This document shows, one piece after another, positions 9,001 through 12,000 of a DNA stretch of 28,791 bases. The stretch is from a virus (taxonomy: Duplodnaviria; Heunggongvirae; Uroviricota; Caudoviricetes). Position numbers: made by a program. Each line of letters begins with the position of its first letter. Position 1 is the stretch's first letter. The stretch lies in the IMG/VR virus record IMGVR_UViG_2534682161_000017, positions 1 to 28,791 of that record. One strand, written 5' to 3'.

Positions 9001-12000
9001 CTTGTCAGTTTCTGTTGATGCATAATCGCTGAAGTCTTTCAGGATTTGTTCGCAGTCAACCGATGGAGATTTCTGGTTGGTATTTTCTGGTGATGGTTTG
9101 TTATCTGATGCTGGGATTGCCCATCCCGGCAGCGATGGAGGGAGCCAGTAAAATCCTGTTCCATCCTTCAGTTTTGCCCTGTGCCACCCCTGCTTTTTAT
9201 CGGGAGATGTTTGTGCGAAACCTTCCTCAAGGTTATACAGATACCGACCGATTCCCCACTGAACGGCAGCGCGCTTCATTGCACCGGAACGACCACCTTT
9301 GACGGCTTCTACCTGCGTGTTTTCAGCAGCATCCCATTTGGTTACCCATTCGGAATCAATCTTTATTGATATGCCGCATTCAACGCCGCCGTTGTTGGGA
9401 ATATCGCGGTATTCATTGCGCCATCCTGCTTTGCCGCAAACATCGTCCAGGCGTTTCATGATTGCCCGGTTCGTGACATAAGCCAGCACCATAGCCCACA
9501 CTTTGCCATCGCGTGTTTTACCGCTTTGCTGTATTCGCCATTCGATATCTTCAGGGCTGAATGGCTCATCGAATTTATTCAAATCCATAATTCACCTCAG
9601 AATGGACACGGCCCAAGGAAATAACGCTGATTTAATACTTCGACTCGAGACAAATTAAGGCATACCCGCATTCCTTCGCGGTCGCCATTATGGCGATACC
9701 AGAGAGCTTTCTGCGTGTACATGCGTCTCTGTAACTTGCTCTCCTTCACGGTGGTTGCAAGTGACATGAATATCTCCTTCGTTACCGATTAATTCTTTCA
9801 TCTGACGAATGAATTCTTCGTCTGACCAGTTATCTGTAAAACTCATTTCCTGCGATACCACGGAATGTTGATAGCTGATTTCATCGCTTTATTTGCTTCA
9901 AGCCACATTTTGGAATCACCAATAAATCTGGCTATTACTGCTTTGTTCTGTGCAGCACGAAGCATATGGTGATTGATGGCTATTTCATTGCGCATAATAG
10001 GACCTCAACTCTTTTCCATCCGTCACGTAATTTACGGGTGATTCGTTCAAGTAAAGATTCATTTAGTTGGAAGGCACCCATGCGAGCGCCTCCCGCGATT
10101 GCGTAAATCATGGGTGGTTCCTTATGTTGGTTTTATTAGTAGGTTATTTTTGTTGCGAATACTTCGCCTTTTACGATGGCTGTTATGATATTTTTAGCAA
10201 CATCTTCTGATGCGCCAACCTTGATAAGGTCAGCAAGTATTTTGTTATTTACTTCTTTCCGGTGAGCTTTATCCTTTGCTCTGTGCTCTTCTTCGTCCTT
10301 GATTCTTTTTTCTTCTGCGATTCTGGCTTGCTCTTTTGCTTCAGCCTCGCGACGGATTCGTTCAGCCTCCTCCTGTGCTTTTCTGCGTTCTGCTTCAATT
10401 GCTGCCTGCTTTTCTCTTTCAGCTCGTTCTGCTGCCTCTTTTGCTTCGCGCTGTGCTCGTTGCTCGGCCTCAATGCGTTCACGCTCTGCACGTTCCGCTG
10501 CGGCCTTAGCTTCTGCTTCTCGCCTTGCGGCTGCTTCAATTTCGGCTTTTGCCTTTGCTTCGGCTTCTGCTCTTGCTTTCTCTTCAGCTTCTCTTTTTAA
10601 GCGTTCTTCATGCTCTCGCTTTTCCTGCTCAGCTTTGAGTCTTGCCTCTTCTCTTTGGCGGTCAAATTCGCGATCCATCAAAATCGCTATTTCATGGTCA
10701 GACTCAATTTGCTTTGCGAGAGCTTCAGCTGCTGCCTTAGCTTCTTCTTCGGCTTTAATCCGCGCCTGTTCTTCCTCATAATCAGTAAGAGGCTGGCGTG
10801 CCTTGGCTTTCAGCTCATCAAGGCGATCGCGCACTGTCTTGCGGTTGGCATCAATTAGCTTTGGAATTTCCTTCAGTTCAGCAACAAGGTCTTTGCCAAG
10901 ACCATCGAGATATGTTTTCGTCTGCGCAACTTTATACGCCAGAGAAGCGATCTCCTTTCTGCCCTTTGCCGTTGTGATATCAGGCACAAAGGACATAACT
11001 TCACGTTCAACCTTTTGAAGGATTTCTTCAATCTGGTCGGCAGACTGAAATACAGTCATTGCATTTGCTTTTTCAATAACAACTAAATCTGTTACTTCAC
11101 TCATATATCCTCCATCAAAAAAATTGCCCTCACACTGGAGGGCAAAGAAGATTTCCAATAATCAGAACAAGTCGGCTCCTGTTTAGTTACGAGCGACATT
11201 GCTCCGTGTATTCACTCGTTGGAATGAATACACAGTGCTTACTCGTACTAATAAAATACCCAATTTTCTGTTTCTTGGTTGTGCCCAAAGTTATATTCAA
11301 TATCTGGTGTTGATGTATCAATATTCTTCATCCCATCAACAAGAGTTGATACAACAGCCAAATCTTGTTTGATTCTCATTAAATGGTATTTCTTCCGGCG
11401 CAATAAACTCTCAATGGCAAGTTTCTTCGTTGGGAATGCAAAAGATCTTTCTGCATTTTTTGCTACTTTCTTAATTGCATATCTATTTCTCCTTTGTTTC
11501 CATTCCTGTAACCACTGATTTGGTGCTGGTTTAAAATTAACAATCCAATGCGCAGGAACCAACCATGCATAATGCTCTGTCTGATGAAAAGCTATATATT
11601 GAAGTGCTAATATTTTGATTCCATCTTCTTCAACTGTCGCCTGGAATCTCCAGAAAACAGGCATTCCCTCATGTTCAGTTTCTGATTCAGGAAAAGGTAC
11701 GCTCCATGATATTGTCATATCTCACCTCAATCGTAATAAGCTGGAATTGATTTTCCGCGTTGCTTCTGGCGGCCTGAGCATGTCACACCCATTTCACTCC
11801 GTGGCTTTCGGTAGTAAATACGGTTCTGTTTACGCTCGACTTCTTCTACCTTCTTGCAGCGAAGGCTTCCGAGTGATGCTGCTTTATCTGCTCTGACGCA
11901 ACCAGAGAGCTTTAGCGCAATCTTTCGCGCCAGTCGCTGTTCTTGCATTGCCTGTTCACGTTGAGCCTGCCTGCGTGCTCTGCGGCGATTTCTGGCGTTA

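What the first reader, a model, noticed from the sequence alone, without database searches (positions are those of the whole stretch)
11248..11718. AT-rich 156-aa accessory gene immediately after N, followed by a strong terminator
The gene starts 8 nt after the N stop and is followed by a perfect 8-bp stem plus U7 terminator (11117..11145). This is the position lambda uses for ral and sieB (restriction alleviation, superinfection exclusion). Its composition is clearly lower in GC than the surrounding genes, and it has no recognisable motif. It is a second moron-like candidate for a defence or anti-defence function, expressed early via N antitermination.
Basis: partly seen in the sequence, partly recalled or inferred. 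Interest (0 to 1): 0.65.

Follow-up and report, generated by a model that had tools for sequence, protein, structure and literature searches.

The report
Conserved unknown early gene after N
This is a real, strongly conserved 156-residue phage gene, the same one as HK97 gp45 and 933W L0079, that sits between the antiterminator gene N and the first leftward terminator; its function is unknown, its predicted fold matches no solved structure, and a counter-defence role is plausible but untested.

Summary
There is a 156-aa ORF at 11248-11718 (minus strand), 8 nt after an N-like gene. Its GC is 36% against 48% for the window. An 8-bp stem plus T7 terminator follows at 11117-11145.

The gene is not new. 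It is 97-98% identical to HK97 gp45, 933W L0079 and phi24B vb_24B_11c. It is a full-length match to PHROG 1636 (unknown function) and occurs in 598 of 5426 complete E. coli genomes, always annotated as hypothetical.

It moves as a discrete cassette of ribosome-binding site, ORF, 3' hairpin and terminator. That cassette is joined to at least six N alleles and to Nun. Polymorphism shows strong purifying selection.

The gene lies upstream of the first terminator, so it should be transcribed with N without needing antitermination. It also has no promoter of its own, so it is not a full moron.

My best guess is an immediate-early binding protein for counter-defence or host takeover. Confidence in that function is low, about 0.3.

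The parts
11248..11718 (-). 156-aa ORF, member of the HK97 gp45 / 933W L0079 family (PHROG 1636). It has an acidic N-terminal beta-sheet region, a basic core at residues 74-118 and a 33-residue helix at 98-130.
   Evidence: ORF. PHROG 1636, E=1.6e-110, profile positions 1-156 of 156. 97-98% identity to HK97, 933W, phi24B and BP-4795. Polymorphism at codon positions 1/2/3 = 1/2/23. AF2 pLDDT 95.4. Charge distribution.
11719..11730 (-). Ribosome-binding site (GAGGTGAG overlapping the N stop codon) and the upstream edge of the mobile cassette.
   Evidence: Sequence. The homology breakpoint falls at window 11730 in most of the 85 related loci.
11206..11233 (-). Strong 3'-UTR hairpin (GTGTATTCATTC-CAAC-GAGTGAATACAC) with no U-tract. 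It is identical in the common 3'-flank variants listed.
   Evidence: Fold of 11095-11260, z = -4.67. Identical in the 3' flanks listed from 85 loci.
11117..11145 (-). Intrinsic terminator (8-bp stem, 6-nt loop, T7). It is the tL1 equivalent and the downstream edge of the cassette.
   Evidence: HK97 annotates a terminator at the same relative place. Homology breakpoints at 11101-11120.
11727..12032 (-). N-like antiterminator gene (101 aa, arginine-rich motif NARNRRRARRQAQ).
   Evidence: PHROG 271, E=3e-36; Pfam N_peptide weak.
12140..12180 (-). nutL-like site: boxA-like GCTCTTTAAC (12180-12171) and a boxB-like hairpin TCCCGC-CGAAAT-GCGGGA (12157-12140). This is inferred from sequence only.
   Evidence: The assignment comes from resemblance to lambdoid nut sites (my own knowledge) and was not tested.
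12227..12255 (-). pL-like promoter (TTGACC, 17-nt spacer, TATCTT), the only sigma-70-like site upstream of N and the ORF on this strand.
   Evidence: consensus scan only.

Best explanation
The feature is a genuine protein-coding accessory cassette of lambdoid and P22-like phages, the same gene as HK97 gp45, 933W L0079 and phi24B vb_24B_11c. The mobile unit is a ribosome-binding site, the ORF, a 3'-UTR hairpin and an intrinsic terminator. It inserts as the last gene before the first leftward terminator.

Shown or directly inferred: the gene is transcribed from pL together with N, before and independently of N-mediated antitermination. It is probably translationally coupled to N in this window.

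Inferred, low confidence: the product is a soluble 18.6-kDa protein with a phage-specific fold. That fold is a long three-stranded beta-meander, short helices, and a very basic strand-helix element with 16 K/R in residues 74-118. It most likely acts by binding a nucleic acid or an acidic host protein, not by catalysis, in the first minutes of infection or induction. The most probable role is to neutralise a host barrier or take over a host function, on the same schedule as Ral or T7 Ocr. About 0.3 of the confidence rests on that functional part. Identity and expression logic are far more secure.
For: Real gene:
- Among 32 distinct alleles from 85 loci, variable sites fall 1/2/23 by codon position.
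- 21 codons vary synonymously only and 5 carry an amino-acid change. No allele has an internal stop.
- 40 residues are invariant across 22 homologues down to 54% identity.

Identity: PHROG 1636 is matched over its full length. The protein is 97-98% identical to HK97, 933W, H-19B, phi24B and BP-4795. It is present in 598 of 5426 complete E. coli genomes.

Cassette:
- Homology edges fall at 11730 and at 11101-11120.
- The cassette is joined to at least six N alleles in 55 loci and to Nun-like genes in 8 to 10 loci.
- Where the usual 3' flank is replaced, a different stem-plus-T-run sequence follows the stop directly (my reading of the sequence, not run through the terminator scan).

Immediate-early expression: no terminator-like site lies between pL and the gene, and the first one comes after it. 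In Salmonella phage NX263, a Vibrio phage and a metagenomic phage, relatives are the first or second gene of an early operon.

Binding rather than catalysis:
- No enzyme family matches.
- The 'HET' motif of the superfamily is HQT in this clade.
- The core is basic.

The slot is shared with ral.
Against: - No experiment or homologue links the family to any function.
- No literature was found on gp45, L0079 or vb_24B_11c.
- The position next to N is not universal. In Pectobacterium and Brenneria prophages the 57-63% identical homologue sits just upstream of xis-int, so timing may differ there.
- No conserved neighbour points to a target.
- Promoter and terminator calls are consensus scans only. 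Rho-dependent termination upstream of the gene cannot be excluded.
Confidence: 0.4

Rival explanations
1. It is a nucleic-acid-binding regulator or helper of phage development, acting on transcription, excision/recombination or replication, and not a counter-defence factor.
For: - The core is strongly basic: 16 K/R against 2 D/E in residues 74-118.
- K87, A101, G33 and T47 are conserved across the whole superfamily.
- Close homologues lie directly upstream of xis-int in Pectobacterium and Brenneria, and upstream of an AlpA-like gene plus integrase in a distant relative.
- Neighbours in other phages include ParB-like and Rha-like regulators.
Against: - No HTH or other known DNA-binding domain is found by HMM or by fold search.
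- The gene is dispensable in the lineage. Closely related phages lack it or carry unrelated genes in the slot.
- It combines freely with many immunity and N types, which is unusual for a sequence-specific regulator.
Confidence: 0.25
2. It is a prophage-encoded defence or superinfection-exclusion protein, like SieB, that protects the lysogen.
For: - It occupies the same slot as sieB and other exclusion-type genes. A PHROG 1510 'superinfection exclusion' gene and a TM protein (PHROG 3054) are neighbours or alternatives.
- Its composition is AT-rich.
- It is intact in essentially all of about 600 E. coli genomes that carry it.
- It follows a Nun-like gene in 8 to 10 loci. From my own knowledge, Nun is active in HK022 lysogens.
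Against: - The cassette has no promoter of its own. Its edge is 12 nt upstream of the ATG, and no sigma-70-like site lies on its strand between pL and the ATG. It should therefore be silent under cI repression.
- It has no TM segment.
- It has no PADLOC match.
- Structural relatives occur across a taxonomically wide range of phages (their lifestyles were not checked), and some relatives sit at the head of early operons.
Confidence: 0.12
3. The functional element is the RNA. The 3' UTR (hairpin 11206-11233 plus terminator 11117-11145) would give a 3'-derived small RNA or an mRNA-stabilising end, with the ORF secondary.
For: - The 166-nt 3' region folds far better than shuffles, z = -4.67.
- The hairpin is identical in the common 3'-flank variants listed, while the terminator loop and flank vary.
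Against: - The ORF itself is under clear purifying selection and is conserved as protein down to about 20% identity in other phyla of phages.
- In about a dozen loci the 3' UTR is replaced right at the stop codon while the ORF is kept.
- There is no Rfam match.
Confidence: 0.05

Closest known systems
HK97 gp45 (NP_037731) / 933W L0079 (NP_049479) / phi24B vb_24B_11c / BP-4795 ORF18; PHROG 1636
   Same: It is the same gene. Amino-acid identity is 97-98% over all 156 residues. The position after N is the same, and so are the 3' hairpin and terminator.
   Different: Here it follows a different, 101-aa N allele with an 8-nt spacer, against 58 nt in HK97 and 933W. It sits in a P22-like (Lederbergvirus-type) prophage. 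None of these homologues has a known function.
Lambda Ral (restriction alleviation; PHROG 1055)
   Same: Same genomic slot just downstream of N, and an early expression schedule. Ral and this gene occur side by side in phages phi367 and phi296. Ral fills the same slot without this gene in CUS-3.
   Different: There is no sequence similarity. Ral is 66 aa and this protein is 156 aa. A restriction-alleviation phenotype was not tested.
Lambda/P22 SieB and other exclusion genes of the N-cIII interval
   Same: Same variable interval of the pL operon, and AT-rich accessory character.
   Different: This protein has no TM segment, no HMM match and no promoter of its own. From my own knowledge, SieB is a membrane-associated protein expressed in the lysogen.
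T7 gene 0.3 (Ocr) as the model of a first-expressed counter-defence protein
   Same: The resemblance is in timing only. Both are promoter-proximal, made before the bulk of early genes, small and soluble.
   Different: Ocr is an acidic all-helical DNA mimic. This protein is basic (pI 8.8) and mixed beta/alpha, and no fold match was found.

Membership tests
HK97 gp45 / 933W L0079 family (PHROG 1636) | Full-length match to the family profile | tested here: met
   E=1.6e-110, residues 1-156 on profile positions 1-156 of 156.
HK97 gp45 / 933W L0079 family (PHROG 1636) | Near-identity to the named phage genes and the same position after N and before a terminator | tested here: met
   97-98% identity. 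Annotated maps of HK97, 933W, phi24B and BP-4795.
Lambda Ral (restriction alleviation) | Sequence similarity to Ral (PHROG 1055) and a size of about 66 aa | tested here: not met
   No Ral hit in PHROGs or Pfam. CUS-3 Ral hits PHROG 1055 at E=4.5e-49 as a positive control.
Lambda Ral (restriction alleviation) | Alleviates type I restriction or enhances modification | not testable with these tools
   This needs plating of unmodified phage on EcoKI-type hosts.
SieB-type superinfection exclusion | Membrane association through hydrophobic segments | tested here: not met
   Maximum Kyte-Doolittle (19-residue window) is 0.62, against 3.67 for the nearby TM protein orf98 as a control.
SieB-type superinfection exclusion | Own promoter, with expression in the repressed prophage | tested here: inconclusive
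   No sigma-70-like site on the strand between pL and the ATG. The cassette edge is 12 nt from the ATG. Both rest on a consensus scan; no expression data exist.
Moron (Juhala/Hendrix sense: promoter + gene + terminator, inserted between conserved genes) | Deviant base composition and presence/absence among related phages | tested here: met
   GC 0.363 against 0.484 for the window. The slot is empty or filled otherwise in CUS-3 and HF4s.
Moron (Juhala/Hendrix sense: promoter + gene + terminator, inserted between conserved genes) | Own terminator | tested here: met
   The terminator at 11145-11117 lies within the cassette.
Moron (Juhala/Hendrix sense: promoter + gene + terminator, inserted between conserved genes) | Own promoter | tested here: not met
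Known anti-phage defence systems (PADLOC-DB 2.0) | HMM match to any component | tested here: not met
   0 families at E up to 1.
Any solved protein fold | Significant structural match of a confident model | tested here: not met

The most novel reading that the evidence does not exclude
The HK97 gp45 / 933W L0079 superfamily would be the founding family of a new class of immediate-early counter-defence (or host-takeover) proteins with a fold unseen in solved structures. It is made together with N before any antitermination. It is carried by the major Shiga-toxin phages and by about 11% of E. coli genomes, and it has remote relatives in Vibrio, Pseudomonas, Rhizobium and Bacteroidota phages.
Probability: 0.3. 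Interest if true: 0.65.

Novelty: new member of a known kind. Interest (0 to 1): 0.4.

Why it matters
The gene is among the first two transcribed from pL in many medically important Stx phages (933W, H-19B, phi24B, BP-4795) and in the model phage HK97. Yet in every record examined here it is annotated only as a hypothetical protein (or by gene number), and no paper on it was found.

A confident structure model with no match in the PDB, together with a superfamily spread across phages of several bacterial phyla, makes it a well-defined and cheap target for anti-defence or host-takeover screens. K-12-infecting carriers already exist (HK97, Huey, Dewey, Bas106).

If it proves to be a counter-defence factor, it would add a new protein family and a target system. 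If it does nothing measurable, it remains one of many conserved phage ORFs of unknown function.

Tried and rejected
1. HMM libraries: Pfam, NCBIfam and PADLOC gave nothing. PHROGs gave only unknown-function families.
2. PDB by sequence and by profile: only chance-level hits to reticulocyte-binding protein and twinfilin.
3. First AF2 run with 22 close homologues gave pLDDT 59.8. It was rescued by a 105-sequence alignment built from the exhaustive search.
4. Fold searches were negative in the PDB. The afdb50 library was unavailable.
7. Two long proteins in the exhaustive search (P0056, P0081) are low-complexity repeats, not relatives.
8. Search for a conserved partner gene: the neighbours are unrelated.
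9. sRNA families: no Rfam hit.
10. Literature: gp45+HK97, L0079, accession numbers, vb_24B_11c and PHROG numbers returned nothing relevant. The phage accessory-gene screen PMC12373910 includes ral, but I could not find this protein in its held supplements.
11. Plasmid collection: only prophage-like or mis-binned records.
12. The search for related loci with the distant alignments failed for lack of a conserved stretch.
13. N-cofactor idea: weakened because homologues in Pectobacteriaceae sit next to xis-int and not next to N.

Full report
**Observation**

It lies at 11248..11718 on the minus strand, starts with ATG and encodes 156 aa. The gene upstream on the same strand (11727..12032, 101 aa) matches PHROG 271 'anti-termination protein N-like' at E=3e-36, and more weakly Pfam N_peptide.

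Eight nucleotides separate the N stop codon from the ATG, and a GAGGTGAG ribosome-binding site overlaps that stop. The terminator TTGCCCTC/CAGTGT/GAGGGCAA plus T7 lies at 11145..11117.

The ORF has GC 0.363 (GC3 0.287). N has 0.507 and the whole window 0.484.

A second, stronger hairpin at 11206-11233 lies between the stop codon and the terminator. The 166-nt 3' region folds with z = -4.67 against shuffles.

**It is a real gene**

I collected 85 related loci from IMG/VR and GenBank phages, which gave 32 distinct alleles.
- Variable sites fall 1/2/23 on codon positions 1/2/3.
- 21 codons vary synonymously only and 5 change the amino acid.
- No allele has an internal stop.

Across 22 homologues down to 54% identity, 40 residues are invariant.

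**Identity**

The protein is a full-length member of PHROG 1636, unknown function (E=1.6e-110). It is 97-98% identical to genes annotated as hypothetical in HK97 (gp45), 933W (L0079), H-19B, phi24B (vb_24B_11c), BP-4795 (ORF18), Stx2-86, Min27 and many Stx1a/Stx2a phages.

The gene occurs in 598 of 5426 complete E. coli genomes at 95-99% nucleotide identity, with up to four copies per genome, and is always called 'hypothetical protein'. The window itself is a P22-like prophage. The 1.3-kb stretch around the gene is 100% identical to E. coli strain MFDS1019527.

Searches of the paper library for gp45+HK97, L0079, the protein accessions, vb_24B_11c and the PHROG numbers found nothing on its function.

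**Cassette anatomy and context**

BLAST of the window against the 85 loci shows sharp homology edges.
- The upstream edge is at window 11730, 12 nt before the ATG, in most loci.
- The downstream edge is at 11101-11120, just past the T-run, in most loci.
- In about a dozen loci the downstream edge is at 11248, exactly at the stop codon. In several of those the sequence directly after the stop is a short stem followed by a T-run (GCCG...CGGC-CTTTATTTTT). I read this as a different terminator, but it was not run through the terminator scan.

The mobile unit is therefore RBS, ORF, 3' hairpin and terminator. It brings no promoter.

It is joined to at least six different N alleles, in 55 loci. These include the 127-aa 933W/HK97 type, the 101-aa type of this window and lambda N. 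It also follows Nun-like genes (PHROG 5632) in 8 to 10 loci. In the remaining loci, other small accessory ORFs lie in between.

Related phages fill the same interval differently.
- CUS-3 has ral plus a PHROG 3054 TM protein.
- HF4s has the TM protein alone, also 8 nt after N.
- phi367 and phi296 have ral followed by this gene.

So the N-to-terminator interval is a variable accessory slot, and this gene is usually its last member.

**Expression logic**

The only sigma-70-like site upstream on this strand is TTGACC-17-TATCTT at 12255-12227. A boxA-like GCTCTTTAAC and a boxB-like hairpin follow it at 12180-12140. The nut assignment rests on my own knowledge of lambdoid nut sites.

No terminator-like site lies between this promoter and the ORF. 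The first one is after the ORF.

The gene should therefore be on the immediate-early pL transcript with N and should not need antitermination. It rests on consensus scans, and Rho-dependent termination cannot be excluded.

**Wider family**

An exhaustive profile search found 87 representatives at E below 1e-3. Most are 130-160 aa. Across the superfamily G33, T47, K87 and A101 are nearly invariant. The consensus is YR..E.G...HET...K..K...RFAF.T..A...L..RK..Q.

None of the members has a Pfam domain, and all fall in unknown-function PHROGs. Source names, where given, are always 'hypothetical protein'.

Their contexts are early regions of prophages and phages.
- Some lie near C5 methylases, HNH, ParB-like or Rha-like genes.
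- In Salmonella phage NX263, a metagenomic phage and a Vibrio phage the gene is first or second in an early operon.
- In Pectobacterium and Brenneria prophages the 57-63% identical homologue lies directly upstream of xis-int, not next to N.

I found no conserved partner gene.

**Structure**

With 22 close homologues AlphaFold gave pLDDT 59.8. With the 105-sequence alignment it gave pLDDT 95.4 and pTM 0.82. The model has these elements in order:
- three long antiparallel strands (19-30, 33-46, 50-55);
- two short helices;
- a strand at 83-86;
- a 33-residue helix (98-130);
- an extended conserved C-terminal tail.

The protein has pI 8.8. Its N-terminal region is acidic, and its core at 74-118 holds 16 K/R against 2 D/E. 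It has no TM segment.

**Interpretation**

What is shown: a conserved, selected, soluble phage protein on an immediate-early transcript, carried as a promoter-less cassette in a slot shared with ral and exclusion-type genes.

What is inferred: it acts by binding, not by catalysis. There is no enzyme signature, and the superfamily's HET motif is HQT in this clade. The binding would probably use the basic strand-helix element, and the protein would serve the infecting or induced phage and not the lysogen.

Counter-defence or host takeover is the most economical reading, at about 0.3. A developmental nucleic-acid-binding role follows at about 0.25, and prophage defence at about 0.12. None of these can be decided with these tools.

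**Verdict**

The gene is already catalogued but functionally unknown.

Interest is moderate. This is an ordinary kind of locus, but the gene is unusually widespread, is expressed early, and has a confidently predicted fold that matches no solved structure.

Noticed in passing
window 12467-12763 (-), terminator 12443-12462: A 98-aa ORF directly downstream of the cI-like repressor gene (12804-13541) on the same strand. It is very AT-rich (GC 0.306), has one strong N-terminal TM helix (KD19 3.67) and matches PHROG 18389 (unknown). A G+C-rich terminator follows it. This is the position of rexAB in lambda, so it is likely co-expressed with cI in the lysogen and is a better candidate than the 156-aa gene for a prophage-expressed exclusion protein.
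   Followed up: partly
window 11206-11233 (-): A 12-14 bp hairpin in the 3' UTR with no U-tract, identical in the common 3'-flank variants listed, while the terminator loop and tail vary. It could be a processing or stabilising element, or part of a 3'-derived small RNA. There is no Rfam match.
   Followed up: partly
window 10136-11104 (-): A 322-aa highly charged coiled-coil protein (EAKA/ERAE repeats) starts 13 nt after the terminator T-run. It matches PHROG 1376 (unknown). RefSeq annotates it as 'TolA' or 'coiled-coil domain-containing', and phage HF4s as 'similar to phi80 Agt / Gam antitoxin'. It is the first gene that would need N antitermination.
   Followed up: no
loci L034 and relatives (IMG/VR), upstream of the cassette: In 8 to 10 of 85 loci the cassette follows an HK022 Nun-like transcription-termination factor gene (PHROG 5632) in place of N, with a 131-133 nt spacer in 8 of them. 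In those prophages the gene might be expressed in the lysogen.
   Followed up: partly
loci L024 and similar (IMG/VR), directly after the stop codon: In about a dozen loci the usual 3' UTR is replaced right at the stop codon. In several of them the new sequence is a short stem plus T-run (GCCG-CATAGT-CGGC + CTTTATTTTT) that I read as another terminator. The gene-then-terminator arrangement thus appears to be kept by two unrelated sequences.
   Followed up: partly
L013, L014, L101 (Pectobacterium, Brenneria prophages): Homologues of 57-63% identity lie immediately upstream of xis-int at the prophage end, next to icd in L013 and L101, and not after N. The family is therefore not tied to N.
   Followed up: yes
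window 11101-11199 (-): A 32-aa ORF overlaps the terminator. It is annotated as a gene in phage phi367 but is probably spurious.
   Followed up: no
window 8881-9588 (-): A Rad52/Erf-like single-strand annealing protein (Pfam Rad52_Rad22 E=2e-25; PHROG 1097), as expected for the early-left recombination module of a P22-like prophage.
   Followed up: no
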